A DNA stretch of 64,000 bases, taken from the NCBI GenBank assembly GCA_038087875.1, contig CM075988.1:23190001-23254000 (forward strand). Reading direction: 5' to 3'. The notes beneath the pieces were generated by a model. It was not told the DNA's origin and made no database searches. It saw nothing but the letters and a program-made list of their open reading frames with translations. Within the stretch, counting starts at the first letter, position 1; the number at the start of each line of letters is the position of its first letter. This document shows positions 18,136 to 62,988 of this stretch, piece after piece. The translations under genes and the position numbers were made by a program. Origin of the DNA: Malacoraja senta. Lineage: Eukaryota.

Positions 18136-18989
18136 TTCTACGAGACGACCTTGACATTGGTTCACTAAGCCTTCCAGTGGAATTGGAAAGTTTTGCAGAA
18201 ATGGCATTGGCAGCTACTTTCCAATGCCGTGAGATGCCTGCTGATGGCAGCCCAGGTCACAGAAGCTTTTTTGTAAACCCAACATCTGCAGTTCCTCATA
18301 TCTTCATCCAGGCCAAAGAAGCCCTCTTGATAGGCGACCACTGCAGCACTCCAAACACCCATTCCCTCCACCAACGGCATACAGCGGCTACAATATTTAC
18401 AGTCTACAAAACGCACTACAGTTAGGCACCCAGTCTACTCCAACAGCAGTCCCATGCCCATGACATCCATCACTAGGAAGGACAAGGGCAGAACGTACAT
18501 GGGAGCACCATTGCATGCTCCCCTATGCATCACTCCTGATTGCAAATCCATGCAGTTCGTTAATTAGTTTAGTTTATGTTTATGGTCATGTGTACCGAGA
18601 TGTCGTGCTAACCAGTCGGCAGAAAGACTACATGATTACAATTGAGCCGTCCACAGTGTACAGATACATGATAAAGGGAAGAACATTTAGTGCAAAATAG
18701 AGTCCAGTAAAGGTTGAGGCGCTGCCGTGCTTTCTTGACCATTGCTTCCACATGGGTAGTCCAAGACAGGTTGCTGATGATATTACCTGTCCTTTCAGTC
18801 TGGAGAATGGATTCCTATCTAAAATGTCACCTATCAATGTTCTCCGGAGACGCTGCCTGACCCGCTGAGTTACTCCAGCATTTTGTGTCTTTCCTTGCTA
18901 AACCAGCATCTGCAGTTCCTTGGTTCTACCTGTTCTGTAGTGTCACTTGGTCTATGTCCCGGGACTCCCTGGCCAACAGCATTACCGGA

Positions 18990-19042
18990 GGGGTGGGAAA
19001 TTGCAACCTTCACGTGGTCCGCCCTGTTTCGACTAATGCAAT
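18990..19042 (+). ncRNA. Minimal HDV-like (CPEB3-type) self-cleaving ribozyme, predicted
   Basis: P1 GGGGUGG/CCGCCCU with G1.U wobble; J1/2 GAA; P2 AUUGCA/UGCAAU; P3 ACC/GGU; L3 UUCACGU; vestigial P4 (GUUUCGA); J4/2 CUAA with putative catalytic C at 19033. Confidence 0.8.
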
Positions 19043-19129
19043 CAACCTGACGTGCACTAACAAATAGATCAAATAGAACAAGTTGACCCACAACTTTAGG
19101 CTGTGCACGCCATACGCAAGAAGAAGAAG
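18990..19129 (+). mobile_element. ~140-bp non-autonomous retroposon with HDV-like ribozyme head and (AAG)n tail, copy 1
   Basis: Flanked by direct repeat CATTACCGGA(G) (18980-18990 and 19130-19140); ends in AAGAAGAAGAAG; homologous end to end with 36955-37095 (-). Confidence 0.9.
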
Positions 19130-19179
19130 CATTACCGGAGTATCTTCAGCAGAAGGACCAGGTGAAGCTGATGAAGCAA

Positions 19180-36140: not shown

Positions 36141-36954
36141 GGTGGCGCTCCATTACTTCCAATATTGAACCAGACTTTGGACCTTGAGCTGTTTTGTTTC
36201 CTTTGTAAACGCCGCCAAAATATGTGCCTTTGTGAGTTGTGCAAAAGAATTTCACTGGGCCGTGCATACATGACAATAAAGTACCATTGAACCAGGTGAA
36301 GGATGATCAGCATGGACTCAGTGGGCCGAAGGACCTAGTTCATGTTGTATCGGTAAACTAAACTAATTTCCAGTTCCAACCCTAAGCTGATCCCATGGTC
36401 CAACTCTGCAGTCTACCCTTTGTGTAATTTTCTTCACTTGTAACTGTAAGAATTTCTATTTTGATGTTACACCCGGTCAAACTCTTTTCATGAATTCACT
36501 CACAGGAGTAAAATTGGCAAGGATAAGCACTCCGCGTTTCCCTTGAACTGAACAGCTCTCTACTCTGCAAGGTTTCCCTTTGTATTACCTGTTGTACTAG
36601 TTCATGGTTTCGCTTGCACTCATCCACTGCATGATTTGATGGGAACGCACGCAAGCAGATGTGTTTCATTGTATTCCGGTACACATGACAACAATAAATC
36701 AATTCCAATCTGACAACTCGCTCGAACTTCAGAGAGGGTACGACAGTGAAACTATTTTTTTTGAGGATCAGGAAAGCAACTTTACAGTAGACGTTCCATG
36801 ATCACTATATTGATACACTCTCTTTAATCCAATTACTTATGGAGTCATAGAGCGATACAGCGTGGAAACATGCCCTTCGGCCCAACATGTCCCAGCTACT
36901 CTAGCCCCACCTGCCCACGTTTGGCCCATATCCCTCCAAACCTGTCCTATCCAT

Positions 36955-37095
36955 CTTCTTCTTCTTGCGTATGGCGTGCACAGCCTAAAGTTGTAGGACA
37001 ACTTGTTCTATTTGATCTTATTTGATTGTGCACGCCAGGTTGATTGCATTCGTTGAAACAGGGCGGACCACGTGAAGGTTGCGATCTCCCACCCC
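36955..37095 (-). mobile_element. ~140-bp non-autonomous retroposon with HDV-like ribozyme head and (AAG)n tail, copy 2
   Basis: Inserted in a CR1 remnant with 11-bp TSD GTCCTATCCAT (36944-36954 and 37096-37106); same 5' start GGGGTGGGA as copy 1. Confidence 0.9.
37043..37095 (-). ncRNA. Minimal HDV-like ribozyme, predicted (one P2 mismatch)
   Basis: Minus strand reads GGGGUGG GAG AUCGCA ACC UUCACGU GGU CCGCCCU GUUUCAA CGAA UGCAAU; J4/2 is CGAA; C-A mismatch in P2. Confidence 0.72.
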
Positions 37096-37949
37096 GTCCT
37101 ATCCATGTACCTGTCTAACTGTTTCTTAAGTGTTGGGATAGTCCCAGCCTCAACTACCTCCTCTGACAGCTTGTTCCATACACCCACCACCCTTTGTGTG
37201 AAAAAGTTACCCCTCAGATTCCTATTAAATCTTTTCCCCTTCACCTATGTCCTCTGGTCCTCGGTTCACCTACTCTGGGCAAGGGAATCTGCGCATCTAC
37301 ACTATACATCTATCAGCTGTCATAGTTGGATTTGAACTCATAACTTCCCATCACTAATCCCATAAGATTGCAGACCCATACCATTGTGCGATATCGGAAC
37401 TGGAGCTTTGTGAGTGCCTGCGTAATAGTCTATGTTCTGTGTTGTACACTGTGGGACAATCATCAGGTAAATGTGTTCACTATTCGCTGATGTAAGTTAA
37501 CATTTTCTGAAATGTAGAACTGAAAACATATTTTTTCCATTTATTCAATAGGTATACTCTGACCCCCTGATGAGACTGAACAATCAACAACTCACCACAT
37601 ATGCCCTGTGTATGTGGTTTAGATATACATCCTGGCTTCTGAAATGGCTAATTACTCTCAAACAGCTTCAGGGATGTTCCTATCTGTTGCTACTTGCCAT
37701 TTCAGAATACAATGTTGAACTAATTCTCAAGCTTTAAGTAAACCACTAATTGGGTTTTTTTTATTGAAGGGAGAATTACTCAGTTGGCTGTGCAGCAAGA
37801 TCTATAGGAATGGAATGCTGACTTGAACTGAACACTTGGAAAAACAAAACCCCATTAATCTTCAAATCCCACCATTGAATCTGCCCCTCAGCCACTCTTC
37901 ATCTCTGCCAGCTGGACTAGAGAGTTTGCAACTTTGGTCTCACAACTTA

Positions 37950-40714: not shown

Positions 40715-41610
40715 GTTAGATTCAGAGAAGTTTATTGTCATTTTGACCAAGGTGCAATGAAATATCCTCGTTCACATGAAGTTAGCAGAGGGAACAATAA
40801 GTGCATTATAATGCACAATACGTACAATGATGAATGCCAAAGACAGCCAAATGGTGTATAATATTGCTGAAGTAGCAAGAAAAGTGCTTAAAAAAACTAA
40901 AGTGCGATCACGGACTAACCAAATGAGATAGCGTGAAGAGTAAGAGTATGGGGCATCACCACTGGGAAGTAGGTTTGAGGAGAATGGTTCAGGAGTTTGA
41001 GGCATGGGGAAGAATCTGTTCTTTAGTCTGGGCATCCAGGCATTCAAGCCCCCAGAAGGTGTAACAGAGAAATGGGAATTTCCAGGGTGGCCGATATCTA
41101 TAACGAAACCTTCAGCATTCTTGATGCAACGCTTCAGATTTCTTGGTATCGTGTCACCAATCTAACCTGATCCCTTCACACCGCTGTGACTAAGGGAAGC
41201 GTCTGAGAAGCATGGGCCATGAAACAGACTGTGTGGAAGGAAGTGCTGAGCCTGTGATGGACTTGGGCTGTGCTCACCGCTCGCTGTCTGCAGGCTCAGG
41301 CGGTCCAGAGCAAGGCGGCTGTCGTACCGGGCTGAGATGCCAGGCAGAATATTGCACATCCATATAAAAGTATGAGAGATTTGGCGTGGACATGCCAAAT
41401 CTTCCCAGATGCCCAAGGAATGTAAATATGCTCTTGTGCTTTCTCAATCACTGAAGGGATCAGCTTAGGTAGGTGATAAGGATGCCAAGAAACTTGAAGG
41501 GGTCAACCCAGTTTATAGCAGCATCATTGATGAGGACAGGGCTGTGTTCACGCCCTCACTTCCTTAAGTAAACATCTATCTCTTTTGCCTTGCTGACGCT
41601 CAGGGTTAGG
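40715..41610 (-). mobile_element. Old Rex/Babar-type LINE remnants, continuing at 42534-42930
   Basis: Minus strand LSVSKAKEI...PVLIND...FKFLGI; RLKNRFFP; KFADD..VV.RINN at 42598-42642. Confidence 0.65.
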
Positions 41611-41611
41611 A

Positions 41612-42432
41612 TCAGCTCCTAGCAGCATGGTGCGCTGACAACAACCTGGCCCTTAACTCCAAGAAGACCAAGGAGCTCATTGTGGACTACAGGAGGTCTA
41701 GGGGCTGCACGCACACCCCCATCCATATTAACGGGACGGAGGTGGAACGTGTTTCCAGCTTCAGGTTTCTGGGGGTCAACATCTCTGATGACCTCTCTTG
41801 GACCCACAATACATCAACACTGGTCAAGAAGGCTCACCAGCGTCTCTTCTTCCTGAGGAGACTAAAGAAGGTCCATCTGTCTCCTCAGATTCTGGTGAAC
41901 TTCTACCGCTGCACCATCGAGAGCATCCTTACCAACTGCATCACAGTATGGTATGGCAACTGCTCTGTCTCCGACCGGAAAGCACTGCAGAGGGTGGTGA
42001 AAACCGCCCAACGCATCACCGGTTCCTCACTCCCCTCCATTGAGTCTGTCCAAAGCAAGCGATGTCTGCGAAGGGCGCTCAGCATCGCCAAGGACTGCTC
42101 TCACCCCAGCCACAGACTGTTTACCCTCCTACCATCCGGGAGGCGCTACAGGTCCCTCCGTTGCTGAACCAGCAGGTTCAGGAACAGCTTCTTCCCTGCG
42201 GCTGTTACACTACTGAACTCTGCACCTCGGTGATTGCCAGTCCCCCCCCCCCCCCCCCTTCCGGACACTCCTTCCCCCAGAAAAATTGCACTACTTATAC
42301 TGCTGTACATATATATATTTTACTGCTCATTATTCCTAAGTTCGCTCTTCTGGGTGAGATGCTAACTATATTTCGTTGTCTCTGTACTGTACACTGCACA
42401 ATGACAATTCAAGATTGAATTGAATTGAATTG
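41612..42432 (+). mobile_element. Rex1/Babar-type LINE 3' part (post-RT, DUF1891-like region)
   Basis: WCADNNLALNSKKTKELIVDYRR...VERVSSFRFLGV...KKAHQRLFFLRRL...FYRCTIESIL...LLPSGRRYRS; (gaatt)n tail. Confidence 0.92.
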
Positions 42433-53124: not shown

Positions 53125-53734
53125 GTTCAAGTTCAAGTGAGTTTATTGTCATGTGTTCCTGATAGGACAATGAAATTCTTGCTTTGCTTCAGCACAACAG
53201 AACATAGTAGGCATTGACTACAAGGCATTCTATAAATATATACACACATGAATCAATATACTGATAAAGTGCAAATAACAGTTAGTTGGCTAATAAAGTT
53301 CAGTGTTTTGTCCGAGCCAGGTTTAATAGCCTGATGGCTGTGGGGAAGTAGCTATTCCTGAACCTGGTCGTTGTAGTCTTCAGGCTCCTGTACATTCTAC
53401 CTGAAGGTAGTAGGGAGATGAGTGTGTGGCCAGGATGGTGTGGGTCCTTGATGATACTGCCAGCCTTTTTGAGGCAGCGACTGTGATAGATCCCCTCGAT
53501 GGAAGGGAAGTCAGAGCCGATGATGGACTGGGCAGTGTTTACTACGTTTTGTAGTCTTTTCCTCTCCAGGGCGCTCAAGTTGCCGAACCAAGCCACGATG
53601 CAACCGGTCAGCATGCTCTCTACTGTGCACCTGTAGAAGTTAGAGAGAGTCCTCCTTGACAAACCGACTCTCCGTAATCTTCTCAGGAAGTAGAGGCGCT
53701 GATGAGCTTTCTTAATAATGGCATCAGTGTTCAT
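53125..53734 (-). mobile_element. Rex1/Babar-type LINE 3' end
   Basis: KKAHQRLYFLRRL...FYRCTVESMLTGCIVAWFGN...FRNSYFP; (cttgaa)n tail. Confidence 0.92.
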
Positions 53735-55657
53735 AACTTCATCAGTGATAGGAGCAGAATTAGGCCATTCGGCCTATCAAGTCGGCCATTCCGCCATTCA
53801 ATCATGGTTGATCTATCTCTCCCTCCTACTCCCCATAACCCCTGACACCCGTGCTAATGAAGAATCTATCCATCTCTGCCTTAAAAATATCAATTGACGG
53901 CCTCCACAGCCTCCTGTGGCAATGAACTCCATAGCTTTACCATCCTCTGACTAAAGAAATTCCTCCTCATCTTCCGAAAGGAACGTCCTTTAATTCTGAG
54001 GCTATGACCTTTCTGTTCCATTCTGGGATCATTCTGCTTCAATGAGTTTGCACTGGCAAACTGAATGGCGTGGTATTCTCCTGGCCGTGAAAGTTGTTGT
54101 CAAGAAAAAAACTACATCCAATATAATGCATCCACGGTGGAAAGCATGAAATATTAGTACACAATGAATGACTGTCTGCTGGGAAAGTGGAAAAGGATGT
54201 AAATGTAATCATCTTACTTTCATGGGAAGTATCCGGTTAATGTGAAGTCATTGTTGATAAGTAAATCCACATATCATTTCACTGCAAGTTGAAGCTGGTT
54301 ATTTCACTGGCACATATTTCATTGATTCATCAGTAGAAACCTGGGTTGTACAGTATTCTATCTAATACCTGCTGCGATTTTTTTCAAGAGGGCTCAGCAA
54401 ACATCTATAATAATAATTACGATTTAAAAAAAAAAGAATTGCAGGACGGTTAAAATTACCTGACATTGAAAATGAGATGAATTAAAGGGAAATACATATT
54501 CTGTTCAACATGAATGGAGAGCTGCAATTATTTCATGAAGGTAGACAAAATTGCTGGAGAAACTCAGCGGGTGAGGCAGCATCTATGGAGCGAAGGAATA
54601 GGTGACGCTTCGGGTCGAGACCCTTCTTCAGACTGATGGGGTTATTTAATGTTTAATGTTCAGGGGATGAATAGGAAACTATGAATATGCAATTAAATCG
54701 TGCAAAGATGTTAAAAGGATTGGGGGCAGTAGATAATCTTTCCACCAACAAATAGATAATTTGTCTGCAAACTTTCTTCCCTTAATGAAGGAGTGAGATT
54801 TCTTTTACCCCAGTTTTGATGAATGGTCCTAGATATTAAAAGCTAACGTTATTTTTCGTTTCCCAGATATTGCCTGGCTTGCTGAGTGTGTCCAAAATTC
54901 TCTGTTTTTTTTATTTATCAGCTTAAAGTTTGTTTGTTTTCCTGGGACACTGATCTGCAATGGGAGGTGCGACATGGATGGCTGTAGGGCAAGTAAAGAG
55001 CACGGAGGACCTTTGGAGGGACGGAGCCTCCATTCCGGGCTTGACTGGGGTTCAATGACCATGCGGCTAGATACAAGATAAAGGCAACTCCAATGTGATA
55101 GCACATGGTAGATATACAGCATAATGACCAGAAAGGGCACACTGGCTTTTCTTCAGTTCAGCTGTGAACCAAGTAAGAGTTGGTCTTGGCATTATACTCA
55201 GCACAATCATTGTGGGCCGAATGGCCTGACCCTGTGCGGTACTCCTCTATGTTCTATCTTCTATCCACCTGCAGCGGGAGGATGAAGAAACTAAAGGTGC
55301 TGGACTTTAGCAGCTGGTCTTTAAGGCAGATAGAGTCGTAATCATAGAGTCATAAAGCACGGAAACAGGTCCTTCGGTCCAACTTGTCCGTGCCTGCCAA
55401 GATACCCCATCTACAATAGTCCCATCTACCTGCATTTGGATCATATCCCACTAAACCTTTCCTATCTCTGTAGTTGTCTTTTGAATCTTGCTGTAGCAGT
55501 AACAGGAGGAATTGCCATTGTGGAAAAAAAGAGGATTTAACAAAAATCTGCTGTATCAGGGCCATGAGATCTACCAAACCCTACGGCCTACCAATGGGAT
55601 TCTGACAGAGGTTCTCAAAGCTGCTGAGGTCTTCACCCATCCTCAATGCAAAGAAGT

Positions 55658-61780: not shown

Positions 61781-62291
61781 AAGGAAAATCTTCAGTGCTG
61801 GGGTACAACATACAGCTGCTGCTGTGTCACAGGAGACCATGAAATATTTTTTCCCAGGGGACAGCAAGAGATTTATATAGCAGCTGCCAAAATGATCAAC
61901 ACAATCGCTTTTGGGCAGCAGGCAGCGAATGCTAATGTTTCCACCACAGGTTAAATAGTTTCGGAAATAAATACACATGTTAAAACCTGATTCTTCCTGT
62001 GAACTTTTAAAATACTTCTTGCAAGCATTAACTAGCATAGTTGGCAGCTTTGGTGAAAAGCAGGTATTGTGTCCATAACCTTAATCGAAGATGCATAAAA
62101 CCAACAGTAATGCGAGTACCATACGGGAAATGTAAAGATACGTTATCTGTATAAAGTAGATCTCTGGCTTATCGTACTTGCTTGAGTACTGAGTATCCTA
62201 AAGGTCTAACTTTATGCCGGGCTGCCAGTATTGCCTTGAAGATCTACCCAAGGACTATTAAAGTTAACATAAAACCTTTCTATGCCTCATT

Positions 62292-62988
62292 GTCGATGGT
62301 TGAAAGGGTCAAGAGCTTCAAATTCCTGGGCGTGCACATCTCTGAAGATCTTTCCTGGTCCGAGAACACTGATGCAATTATCAAGAAAGCACATCAGCGC
62401 CTCTACTTCCTGAGAAGATTACGGCGAGTCGGTTTGTCAAGGAGGACTCTCTCTAACTTCCACAGATGCACAGTAGAGAGCATGCTGACCGGTTGCATCG
62501 TGGCTTGGTTCGGCAACTTGAGCGCCCTGGAGAGGAAAAGACTACAAAAAGTAGTAAATACTGCCCAGTCCATCATCGGCTCTGACCTTCCTTCCATCGA
62601 GGGGGTTTATTGCAGTTGCTGCCTCAAAAAGGCTGTCAGTATCATCAAAGACCCACACCATCCTGGCCACACACTCATCTCCCTGCTACCTTCACGTAGA
62701 AGGTACAGGAGCCTGAAGACTGCAATGACCAGGTTCAGGAATAGCTACTTCCCCACAGCCATCAGGCTATTAAACTTGGCTCGGACAAAACTCTGAACAT
62801 TAATAGCCCATTATCTGTTATTTTCACTTTATCAGTTTATTTATTCATGTGTGTATATATTTATATAATGGTATATGGACACACTGATCTGTTTTGTAGT
62901 CATGCCTACTATATTCTGTTGTGCTGAAGCAAAGCAAGAATTTAATTGTCCTATCAGGGACACATGACAATAAACTCACGAACTTGAA
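62292..62988 (+). mobile_element. Rex1/Babar-type LINE 3' end
   Basis: MVERVKSFKFLGVHISEDLSW...KKAHQRLYFLRRL...FRNSYFP; same family as 53125-53734 and the tail-only copy at 26485-26690. Confidence 0.92.

What the first reader, a model, noticed from the sequence alone, without database searches (positions are those of the whole stretch)
36955..37095. Independent second insertion starts at the same G1 and varies mostly in unpaired positions
Seen: this copy has a different target and TSD (GTCCTATCCAT) and opposite orientation, yet its 5' boundary is again exactly ribozyme G1. Differences in the head fall in J1/2 (GAA to GAG), the vestigial P4 (UUCGA to UUCAA) and J4/2 (CUAA to CGAA), plus one P2 mismatch. 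P1, P3, L3 and the putative catalytic C are invariant. Established: CGAA and CUAA are the J4/2 sequences of the genomic and antigenomic HDV ribozymes. Inference: self-cleavage defines the 5' end of the RNA template. Two copies in 64 kb suggest a high-copy family, and sense-oriented intronic copies could cleave host pre-mRNAs.
Basis: partly seen in the sequence, partly recalled or inferred. Interest (0 to 1): 0.8.

Follow-up and report, generated by a model that had tools for sequence, protein, structure and literature searches.

The report
Ribozyme-headed mini-retroposon copy, parent LINE found
This 141-base insert is one of several thousand copies of a tiny retroposon that starts with a minimal hepatitis-delta-like self-cleaving ribozyme motif and is a cut-down derivative of a 3-kb LINE in the same genome, a known kind of arrangement in an unusually small form.

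Summary
Window 36955-37095 (minus strand) is a 141-nt retroposon flanked by the 11-bp duplication GTCCTATCCAT. It begins exactly at G1 of a 54-nt HDV-like motif. It differs from the copy at 18990-19129 at head positions 10, 13, 42 and 45.

Results beyond the finding:
- The family has thousands of copies; the tail pattern matches 9,834 times.
- I found its autonomous parent, a ~2.9-kb single-ORF endonuclease/reverse-transcriptase LINE with RTE-like architecture. It carries the same ribozyme at its 5' terminus and the same ~40-nt (GAA)n 3' end. The element is therefore a SIDE-type internal-deletion derivative.
- Related LINEs from metagenome contigs carry HDV-like ribozymes just upstream of the ORF, with compensatory changes in 11 of 17 pairs. 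One passes Rfam's CPEB3-ribozyme threshold.

Not supported: the claim that variation sits mostly in unpaired positions. In 26 unbiased copies, non-CpG substitution rates are equal in paired and unpaired sites. CpG decay dominates, and there is no covariation within the family.

This copy's one private change (T13C) breaks P2.

Poly(A) RNA reads show no pile-up of ends at G1. Self-cleavage remains inferred.

Verdict: a real, well-supported new member of a known kind.

The parts
37096..37106 (-). Target-site duplication, copy next to G1 (GTCCTATCCAT on the + strand)
   Evidence: Empty-site joint 36943->37096 with 11 shared letters.
37042..37095 (-). 54-nt minimal HDV-like ribozyme motif (element positions 1-54; G1 = 37095). 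P1 is 37089-37095 with 37060-37066, including G1.U36. J1/2 is 37086-37088. P2 is 37080-37085 with 37043-37048; it has a C.A mismatch at 37083/37045, and a possible extra G-C pair at 37086/37042. P3 is 37077-37079 with 37067-37069. L3 (TTCACGT) is 37070-37076. P1.1 is C22-G37 (37074/37059). The linker that replaces P4 is 37053-37058. J4/2 (CGAA) is 37049-37052, with the putative catalytic C at 37052.
   Evidence: Read from the sequence. RF02682 aligns its full model from 37095, at 13.7 bits against a gathering score of 44. Descriptor scan. A covariance model built only from relatives gives 17.8 bits, starts at 37095 and ranks second in the window. Pair counts.
37014..37041 (-). Segment shared with the 5' UTR of the parent LINE (element positions 55 to about 82). 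It holds the 5' arm (37027-37036) of a 10-bp long-range stem.
   Evidence: Alignment of the element to LINE 5' ends L074 and L075 and L076-L090. Fold.
36997..37013 (-). Family-specific middle segment (element positions about 83-99): a short duplication and the 5' arm of a small hairpin. It is not found in the LINE copies examined.
36955..36996 (-). 3' module shared with the 3' end of the parent LINE (element positions 100-141). It holds the LINE stop codon TAG, the 3' arm of the long stem (36973-36982) and the (GAA)4 tail (36955-36966).
   Evidence: L033 matches positions 100-138 at 100% and L047 matches 102-139 at 84%. In L047 the LINE ORF ends inside this segment.
36944..36954 (-). Target-site duplication, copy after the tail
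18990..19129 (+). Second copy of the family. Head 18990-19043 has an intact 6-bp P2 and J4/2 CTAA. Duplication CATTACCGGA at 18980-18989 and 19130-19139. It is 92.9% identical to the copy under study.
   Evidence: Covariance-model top hit, 18.7 bits.
36701..37400 (-). Host sequence: the C-terminal coding end of a different, very abundant LINE on the same strand. The insert interrupts its reading frame at ...LDRYMDR | MDRTGLEGYG...
   Evidence: Translation of both flanks. Very high read and contig depth on both flanks, and empty-site loose ends at 36954 and 37096.

Best explanation
The insert is a dead-on-arrival copy of a short internally deleted element (SIDE type) derived from a ~2.9-kb single-ORF LINE with RTE-like architecture in the same genome. 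It keeps three things from the parent. The first ~82 nt hold a 54-nt minimal, P4-less HDV-like ribozyme plus part of the 5' UTR. The last ~42 nt hold the LINE stop codon and a stem arm. The third is the (GAA)n tail.

Proposed mechanism: the element has no promoter of its own and is transcribed as part of longer transcripts. The ribozyme cuts immediately 5' of G1 and so creates the exact 5' end. The parent LINE's endonuclease/reverse transcriptase recognises the shared 3' module and copies the RNA into a nicked target, which produces 7-16-bp duplications.

Shown: the anatomy, the boundaries, the copy number, the parent LINE with the same two ends, and conservation of the HDV-like fold with compensatory changes at the 5' ends of related LINEs.

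Inferred: self-cleavage itself, read-through transcription, and mobilisation in trans.

This particular copy carries a private T13C change that puts a C.A mismatch in the middle of P2, so it is probably a weaker ribozyme than the family norm.
For: 1) Boundaries at G1: the duplication, empty-site joints, and 37 of 55 independent copies with an exact duplication abutting position 1, with 0 extending further 5'.

2) Parent LINE.
- L047 and L073 show the ORF C-terminus running into the shared tail.
- L074 shows head, then 5' UTR, then ATG, then an AP-endonuclease domain. Pfam gives Exo_endo_phos_2 at 1.9e-8 and RVT_1 at 5.4e-8.
- Of 16 LINE 5' regions, 11 carry the head. Four of these reach G1 or G2 and 7 are truncated by 5-12 nt. 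Four more are truncated further in, and 1 has none.

3) Other deletion derivatives of the same LINE exist: L052/L053 and junction forms.

4) Fold.
- All core features are present: a 7-bp P1 with G1.U, a 3-bp P3, a 7-nt L3 with U20 and G25, the C22-G37 pair, C44 followed by NAA, and P2.
- L3, the GU after P1, and CGAA are identical to the Rfam CPEB3 consensus line. They also match the CPEB3 description in 10.1101/2022.09.22.508989 (passages).

5) Relatives.
- HDV-like ribozymes lie just upstream of the ORF in L091, L094, L113, L109 and L155.
- Rfam scores: L155 gives 55.6 bits to RF00622, above its gathering score of 35. L094 gives 41.6 bits, L113 30.9 and L091 30.3 to RF02682.
- 11 of 17 pairs change on both sides, and 2 of 136 cells are not standard pairs.

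6) A covariance model built only from those relatives ranks the two window copies first and second. Both alignments start at G1: 18.7 and 17.8 bits against 11.4 for the next hit.

7) There is no pol III-type head: no tRNA and no Rfam hit at gathering thresholds.

8) Literature. HDV-like ribozymes that cleave at the 5' junction are reported for R2, R4, L1Tc and RTE (PMC3774820 passages; PMC6765202 passages). SIDEs are described in PMC3414825 (abstract). Minimal drz that lack P4 exist (PMC10879173 passage).
Against: No direct evidence of cleavage.
- In poly(A) RNA-seq raw reads (X24: about 6% of the run read, 430 reads laid) no position had a pile-up of read starts or ends.
- 46 reads cross G1 into other flanks, and 46 cross the 3' end. 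Junction reads at the 5' end are therefore not depleted. The strand of these reads could not be resolved, and many copies are mutated.

Other points against:
- The window copy scores far below Rfam thresholds (13.7 bits against 44, E=5.4; nothing at gathering).
- The covariance-model E-values are only 0.08-0.13.
- The minimum-free-energy fold of the head is no better than shuffles (z=0.0).
- Within the family there is no covariation, and substitutions are random with respect to pairing.
- The relatives' ribozymes were found with tools that reward pairing, so the 11 of 17 count is inflated by ascertainment.
- P4 is almost absent and P1.1 has only one standard pair, so activity may be low.
- RTE-clade membership of the parent rests on architecture only.
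Confidence: 0.78

Rival explanations
1. The first 54 nt act mainly as an internal promoter or as a protein-binding 5' element. The 5' end at G1 would then be a transcription start, and the HDV-like fold would be inactive or vestigial in this P4-less form. A dual promoter-plus-ribozyme head, as described for L1Tc Pr77, would be an intermediate case.
For: Reads starting at G1 are not enriched, and reads crossing G1 are not depleted. The Rfam and covariance-model scores are weak. P4 is lost and P1.1 is weak. Precise 5' ends are also what promoter-driven SINEs show. The Pr77 precedent comes from PMC3383444 (abstract in the listing).
Against: No tRNA, 7SL or 5S-like head and no match to any other Rfam family. 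Every catalytic-core feature of HDV-like ribozymes is kept. Related LINEs keep the fold through compensatory changes while the primary sequence of P1, P2 and P3 differs, which a DNA promoter would not require. Minimal P4-less drz are reported (PMC10879173).
Confidence: 0.12
2. The resemblance to an HDV-like ribozyme is a chance feature of a retroposon whose 5' end is set in some other way, for example by the full-length end of an unrelated RNA.
For: Low scores of the window copy against curated models. Head fold energy equal to shuffles.
Against: 0 descriptor hits in 28 shuffles of the window. The motif start coincides with the end defined by the duplication in two independent insertions and in the LINE. 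Homologous LINEs carry clear HDV-like or CPEB3-class ribozymes at the same place.
Confidence: 0.03
3. The element is a non-autonomous derivative of a Penelope-like element. This was suggested by locus L040, where head and tail flank a GIY-YIG coding fragment.
For: L040 has head, GIY-YIG ORF and tail in one ~850-bp stretch (Pfam GIY-YIG E=8.4e-4, below the curated cut-off).
Against: All 11 other copies of that Penelope-like family that I fetched lack both head and tail, and continue upstream into their own coding sequence. L040 is a 5'-truncated Penelope-like copy nested inside a retroposon copy.
Confidence: 0.01

Closest known systems
SIDEs (short internally deleted elements) of R2 and R1 in Drosophila (PMC3414825, abstract read)
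   Same: A 5' HDV-like ribozyme is joined to the 3' end of the parent non-LTR element. The element has no coding capacity and is propagated by the parent's machinery. The 5' end is at the ribozyme cleavage site.
   Different: Here the parent is a dispersed, non-site-specific, RTE-like LINE rather than an rDNA-specific R2 or R1. The family has thousands of copies, whereas that abstract calls SIDEs rare. The ribozyme is a 54-nt P4-less form.
HDV-like ribozymes at the 5' end of RTE-clade and other non-LTR retrotransposons (Ruminski et al. 2011, known to me only as cited in PMC3774820 and PMC6765202; the paper itself was not held)
   Same: The ribozyme is at the very 5' end of a promoterless single-ORF LINE, and cleavage coincides with the 5' junction.
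   Different: I could not compare sequences with the published RTE ribozymes. The Rfam search gave no match of the window copy to any family other than RF02682. The window family has lost P4.
Mammalian CPEB3 ribozyme (Rfam RF00622)
   Same: Same L3 (UUCACGU). The same single G-C pair plus U/U P1.1 arrangement, with GU directly after P1. The same J4/2 (CGAA) in this copy. The same 7-bp P1 and 3-bp P3 (consensus line; passages).
   Different: No P4. The P1, P2 and P3 sequences differ. There was no RF00622 hit even at E<=10. The element is a repeated retroposon, not a single conserved intronic site. It is not a member by the curated test.
Minimal HDV-like ribozymes (drz-Mtgn type) and theta ribozymes (PMC10879173, passage read)
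   Same: They lack the P4 domain and are of similar size.
   Different: Those came from metagenomes and phages, with unknown origin or a tRNA association. This one sits at the 5' end of a eukaryotic LINE and its deletion derivative.
L1Tc/NARTc Pr77-L1TcRz of Trypanosoma cruzi (PMC3383444 and PMC3185411, abstracts in the listing)
   Same: An autonomous LINE and its truncated non-autonomous partner share a 5'-terminal HDV-like ribozyme.
   Different: A different LINE clade and host. Pr77 is also an internal promoter, which was not tested here.

Membership tests
HDV-like (delta) self-cleaving ribozymes | Nested double pseudoknot: P1, P1.1, P2, P3 (P4 optional in minimal forms) | tested here: met
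   All helices can be drawn for the family. 96.9% of 578 cells pair in 54 heads. Across related LINE ribozymes, 11 of 17 pairs show changes on both sides (with an ascertainment caveat). In this copy P2 has one C.A mismatch.
HDV-like (delta) self-cleaving ribozymes | Catalytic C in J4/2, and a cleavage site immediately 5' of the first P1 nucleotide (G1, usually G.U) | tested here: met
   C44 is invariant in 54 of 54 aligned heads. G1.U36 is present. G1 is the element's 5' end. Only sequence was tested, not chemistry.
HDV-like (delta) self-cleaving ribozymes | Score at or above a curated Rfam gathering threshold (RF00094, RF02682, RF00622 and others) | tested here: not met
   No hit at gathering thresholds. 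The best is RF02682 at 13.7 bits against 44, E=5.4. These models expect a P4.
HDV-like (delta) self-cleaving ribozymes | Self-cleavage that yields a 5'-OH product | not testable with these tools
   The RNA-seq lay showed no pile-up of ends at G1, which is inconclusive.
CPEB3 ribozyme family (RF00622) | Curated model score, P4 hairpin, single conserved site in a mammalian CPEB3 intron | tested here: not met
   No RF00622 match at E<=10. P4 is absent and the element is a dispersed repeat. Only the L3, P1.1 and J4/2 motifs coincide.
SIDE-type non-autonomous derivative of a LINE | The 5' end and the 3' end are identical to those of an autonomous element in the same genome, and the interior is deleted | tested here: met
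   The head plus 5' UTR matches LINE 5' ends. The last ~40 nt match LINE 3' ends L033 and L047. The parent has AP-endonuclease and RT domains.
SIDE-type non-autonomous derivative of a LINE | Mobilised in trans by the parent's reverse transcriptase | not testable with these tools
   Inferred from the shared 3' module, the duplications and the (GAA)n tail.
RTE clade of non-LTR retrotransposons (the parent LINE) | A single ORF of about 1,000 aa with AP endonuclease and RT, and no ORF1 | tested here: met
   The ATG lies ~55 nt after the ribozyme and leads straight into the endonuclease domain. Relatives are ~1,000-aa proteins on ~3.2-kb contigs. The feature list comes from PMC2887409 (passages).
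RTE clade of non-LTR retrotransposons (the parent LINE) | A very short 3' UTR made of simple-sequence repeats, and variable duplications | tested here: met
   The stop codon lies roughly 20-25 nt before the (GAA)n tail in the shared 3' module. Duplications of 7-16 bp.
RTE clade of non-LTR retrotransposons (the parent LINE) | Phylogenetic placement of the RT among named RTE references | not tested
   No labelled reference set was available. The names returned are uninformative.
Classical SINE | Head derived from tRNA, 7SL or 5S RNA with an internal pol III promoter | tested here: not met
   No tRNA. No such Rfam match even at E<=10.

The most novel reading that the evidence does not exclude
The mammalian CPEB3 ribozyme could be an exapted 5' end of an RTE-like LINE, or of one of its ribozyme-headed mini-derivatives like this one. 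The clade to which this element's parent belongs carries 5'-terminal HDV-like ribozymes. One full-length, decayed member (L155-L157, a single locus) begins, right after its target duplication, with a ribozyme that scores 55.6 bits on Rfam's CPEB3 model (threshold 35). It shares the CPEB3 consensus almost letter for letter in P1, P2, P3 and L3. The window family keeps the same L3, P1.1 and J4/2 core in a P4-less form. It also gives minimal drz a eukaryotic source and a function.
Probability: 0.35. Interest if true: 0.8.

Novelty: new member of a known kind. Interest (0 to 1): 0.55.

Why it matters
The element is a very compact retroposon: a 54-nt ribozyme, a hairpin and a trinucleotide tail. 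It has reached thousands of copies, and one subfamily differs by under 1% (25 of 3,645 sites), so it was active recently.

It gives a eukaryotic, functional context for P4-less 'minimal' HDV-like ribozymes. A 2024 paper describes their origin and role as undetermined (PMC10879173).

It offers a matched natural set for cleavage assays: the LINE head, the subfamily heads, and copies with the P2 mismatch or with C44 mutated.

The related CPEB3-class ribozyme at a LINE 5' end makes the origin of the mammalian CPEB3 ribozyme directly testable.

The catalytic C sits in a CpG, and 10 of 81 RNA reads carry T there. Dispersed copies should therefore lose activity quickly, which limits any effect on host transcripts.

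Tried and rejected
1) Penelope-like origin. Rejected: L040 is a nested insertion.

2) Hunt for a longer element with the same head or tail, using patterns that demand mismatches to the retroposon body. Searches gave 46, 18, 1, 3 and 9 hits. Nearly all were retroposon copies with small indels, and this route did not find the parent. The parent was found instead from a weak partial hit in the flank of L047.

3) Covariation inside the family is uninformative: 0 compensatory pairs, and every measure equals its shuffled control.

4) Thermodynamic support is absent. Head z=0.0 and whole element z=-1.76.

5) Expression.
- No RNA holder was listed by the look-up of sequencing runs for indexed runs.
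- One raw-read RNA run was laid. It shows the family in RNA on both read directions, with no end pile-up at G1.

6) Earlier notes of this scan: none for this genome.

7) Papers not held: Ruminski 2011, Webb & Luptak 2011 and Webb 2009. They may already describe RTE ribozymes of this type or a link to CPEB3.

8) In searches, and in the passages read, I saw no statement that the CPEB3 ribozyme derives from a LINE. The 2021 MBE paper on ancestral CPEB3 ribozymes has 0 occurrences of 'retrotransposon'.

9) Pfam scan of 35 long window ORFs. The only hits were three to PF09004, at 41610-42167, 53300-53773 and 62155-62796. No host gene was identified, so intron status and orientation bias could not be assessed.

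Full report
**What is at the coordinates**

On the minus strand, window 37095 down to 36955 reads as a 141-nt element. It begins GGGGTGGGAG and ends with (GAA)4. It is flanked on both sides by GTCCTATCCAT, at 37096-37106 and 36944-36954.

A second copy lies at 18990-19129 on the plus strand, with a different 10-bp duplication. The two are 92.9% identical.

They are at position 10 (J1/2), position 13 (P2), position 42 (linker) and position 45 (J4/2).

The flanks of the copy under study are the C-terminal coding end of another, very abundant LINE on the same strand. Reads and contigs from paralogues of that LINE that lack the insert join 36943 to 37096. That skips 141 + 11 bases. This fixes both boundaries independently of the duplication.

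**The family**

The 33-nt tail pattern with up to 3 mismatches has 9,834 matches in the 1.94-Gb assembly and 0 in the reversed control.

Of 30 loci chosen only by a perfect tail:
- 28 are full or nearly full elements with the head.
- One is a copy interrupted by a nested Penelope-like fragment.
- One is a 48-nt LINE 3' end.

The 5' ends of 55 independent copies, after dropping three segmental duplicates (L008, L010, L053), sort as follows:

| Class | Copies |
|---|---|
| Exact duplication of at least 7 nt abutting position 1 (offset 0 or +1) | 37 |
| Offset ambiguous because the target itself continues with G | 2 |
| Duplication with a mismatch or indel, or weak | 12 |
| No duplication found | 4 |
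| Family homology 5' of G1 | 0 |

The copy under study belongs to a very young subfamily. In 27 best-match copies, 25 of 3,645 sites differ from their majority base. Its only private change is T13C. In the RNA run, 69 of 70 reads over that site carry the family base.

**The head as an HDV-like ribozyme**

Element positions 1-54 can be drawn as follows:
- P1: 1-7 with 30-36, with G1.U36.
- P2: 11-16 with 48-53.
- P3: 17-19 with 27-29.
- L3: UUCACGU.
- P1.1: C22-G37.
- A 6-nt linker in place of P4.
- J4/2: C44-G/U/A-A-A.

Evidence on this assignment:
- Rfam finds nothing at curated thresholds.
- At E<=10 the only hit is RF02682 (13.7 bits, E=5.4). It aligns end to end and starts exactly at 37095.
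- A general descriptor that I wrote after seeing the sequence hits only the two copies in the window. The copy under study is found only if one P2 mismatch is allowed. It hits nothing in 28 dinucleotide shuffles.
- Free-energy folding gives no support (z=0.0). That is expected for a pseudoknot, but it is not evidence either way.
- ARAGORN finds no tRNA.

L3, the GU after P1, and CGAA are the same as in the CPEB3 consensus line printed by cmscan. They also match the CPEB3 crystal-structure preprint, which describes a 7-nt L3 with U20, U21, C22 and A23-U26, a P1.1 of one G-C pair plus one U-U pair, and G37 U38 (passages).

- In 26 tail-selected independent copies, non-CpG substitution rates are 22/824 in paired head positions and 7/358 in unpaired ones (P=0.54).
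- CpG sites are much faster: 13/50 paired and 19/152 unpaired.
- Positions 42 and 45, and also the catalytic C44, lie in CpGs.
- The count of structure pairs on 54 heads (34 distinct) gives 96.9% paired cells but 0 compensatory changes, and every measure equals its shuffled control.

This pattern is what neutral decay of dead copies gives. It neither supports nor refutes the fold.

Between subfamily source sequences, the shared head differences are:
- position 8 (J1/2);
- position 32 (U5.G to U5-A);
- position 31 (G-C to G.U);
- position 42;
- position 45.

All are compatible with the fold. Most are CpG transitions, so the support is weak.

**The parent LINE**

Pattern searches for longer elements with the same head or tail failed.

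A weak partial match in the flank of L047 turned out to be a 5'-truncated LINE. Its ORF ends ...STLDPQL, and its stop codon TAG lies inside the shared tail. That C-terminal peptide has more than 2,794 candidate matches in the genome.

- L073 shows the RT and the C-terminus (RVT_1 5.4e-8).
- L074 shows, in order: the head from position 8, the 5' UTR, an ATG ~55 nt after the ribozyme, and an AP-endonuclease domain (Exo_endo_phos_2 1.9e-8).
- There is no ORF1.
- The estimated length is about 2.9 kb.

N-terminal matches are few (54 candidates). The 16 LINE 5' regions sort as follows:

| State of the 5' region | Regions |
|---|---|
| Head present, reaching G1 or G2 with unrelated flanks | 4 |
| Head present, truncated by 5-12 nt | 7 |
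| Truncated further in | 4 |
| No head | 1 |

The LINE head is the A32/CUAA type, also seen in one retroposon subfamily. The retroposon is therefore LINE positions 1 to about 82 joined, through a short rearranged segment, to the last ~42 nt.

Other junction forms of the same LINE exist (L052/L053; hits).

The architecture matches the RTE feature list in PMC2887409: a single ~1,000-aa ORF, a very short simple-repeat 3' UTR, and variable duplications. I did not place the RT phylogenetically.

**Comparative support from relatives**

The RT has 393 relatives. These are typically ~1,000-aa endonuclease-plus-RT proteins on ~3.2-kb contigs.

With an alignment of 12 of them I fetched 80 metagenome loci. 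I gave cmscan 19 loci: 17 of these 80, chosen because the match started near the protein's N-terminus, plus two heads of the genome's own LINE. The results, all immediately upstream of the ORF and on its strand, were:

| Locus | Coordinates | Rfam family | Bits |
|---|---|---|---|
| L155 | 788-871 | RF00622, CPEB3 ribozyme (gathering score 35) | 55.6 (E=2.3e-12) |
| L094 | 303-369 | RF02682 | 41.6 |
| L113 | 942-1006 | RF02682 | 30.9 |
| L091 | 953-1019 | RF02682 | 30.3 |

My descriptor adds L109. Three other descriptor hits looked spurious and were left out: L074 at 961, L122 and L159.

I compared eight sequences: the genome's own LINE head, both window copies, L091, L094, L113, L109 and L155. 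Across them, 11 of 17 pairs change on both sides and 2 of 136 cells are not standard pairs. One of those two cells is this copy's C13.A51. The finding tools reward pairing, so this count is inflated. The conserved position upstream of homologous ORFs is independent evidence.

A covariance model built only from the 5' domains of the five relatives ranks 18990-19026 first (18.7 bits) and 37095-37059 second (17.8 bits) in the window, with the next hit at 11.4 bits. The E-values are modest, 0.08 and 0.13.

**RNA evidence**

One poly(A) RNA run kept as raw reads (X24, about 6% read) laid 430 reads on 36880-37170, on both read directions.
- No position qualified as a place where many molecules begin or end.
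- 46 reads cross G1 into unrelated flanks, and 46 cross the 3' end.

There is therefore no sign of efficient cleavage in this material. Several things prevent a negative conclusion:
- Strand could not be resolved.
- Half of the embedded copies are expected to be antisense.
- Many copies are mutated; 10 of 81 reads have T at the catalytic C.
- Ordinary libraries capture RNA ends poorly.

**Verdict**

The arrangement is a known kind: HDV-like ribozymes at LINE 5' ends, and SIDEs. What is unusual:
- the minimal P4-less ribozyme;
- the 141-nt size;
- the copy number;
- the CPEB3-type core.

The most interesting by-product is the CPEB3-class ribozyme at the exact 5' end of a related LINE (L155-L157, which are one locus). 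It has the duplication ATCCGAGTCTT and an (ATC)n tail.

Noticed in passing
L155:788-871 (the same locus appears in L156 and L157): A full-length but frameshifted RTE-like LINE on a metagenome contig begins, right after its target duplication (ATCCGAGTCTT), with a ribozyme that scores 55.6 bits on Rfam's mammalian CPEB3 model (gathering score 35). It matches the model consensus in P1, P2, P3 and nearly all of L3. This suggests a retrotransposon ancestry for the CPEB3 ribozyme.
   Followed up: partly
L094:303-369, L113:942-1006, L091:953-1019, L109:77-149: HDV-like ribozymes with a short P4 lie 20-90 nt upstream of the ORF start in other members of the same LINE group. Their RF02682 scores are 30-42 bits, just under the gathering score of 44. 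L099 and L112 look like decayed versions of the same thing.
   Followed up: partly
window 37027-37036 with 36973-36982 (element positions 60-69 and 114-123): There is a perfect 10-bp complementarity between the 5'-UTR-derived part and the 3' module. In the parent LINE the same two segments, about 2.8 kb apart, are complementary at 9 of 10 positions. This suggests a 5'-3' end pairing in the LINE RNA.
   Followed up: no
window 37052 (element position 44): The putative catalytic C is the C of a CpG. 10 of 81 RNA reads carry T there. The other common head variants (positions 42 and 45) also sit in CpGs. Dispersed copies should therefore lose activity quickly.
   Followed up: partly
L040:770-1490; L062-L072: A very abundant Penelope-like element family (more than 5,523 candidate matches) with a GIY-YIG C-terminal domain. 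Its copies are ~91-93% identical to the L040 fragment. One 5'-truncated copy is nested inside a retroposon copy in L040.
   Followed up: yes
window 41610-42167 (+), 53300-53773 (-), 62155-62796 (+): ORF fragments that match Pfam PF09004. They look like C-terminal parts of another LINE family. The same kind of sequence hosts the insert at 36955-37095.
   Followed up: partly
L052/L053, and the hits at G000:C2:119363931, C5751:357664 and C13:17285995: Independent deletion derivatives of the same LINE that keep more of the 5' UTR and join it directly to the tail. Internal deletion has therefore happened more than once.
   Followed up: no
L120:551-596: A histone 3' stem-loop-like match (RF00032, 26.7 bits, below the gathering score of 34) at the start of a related LINE's coding region on a metagenome contig.
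   Followed up: no
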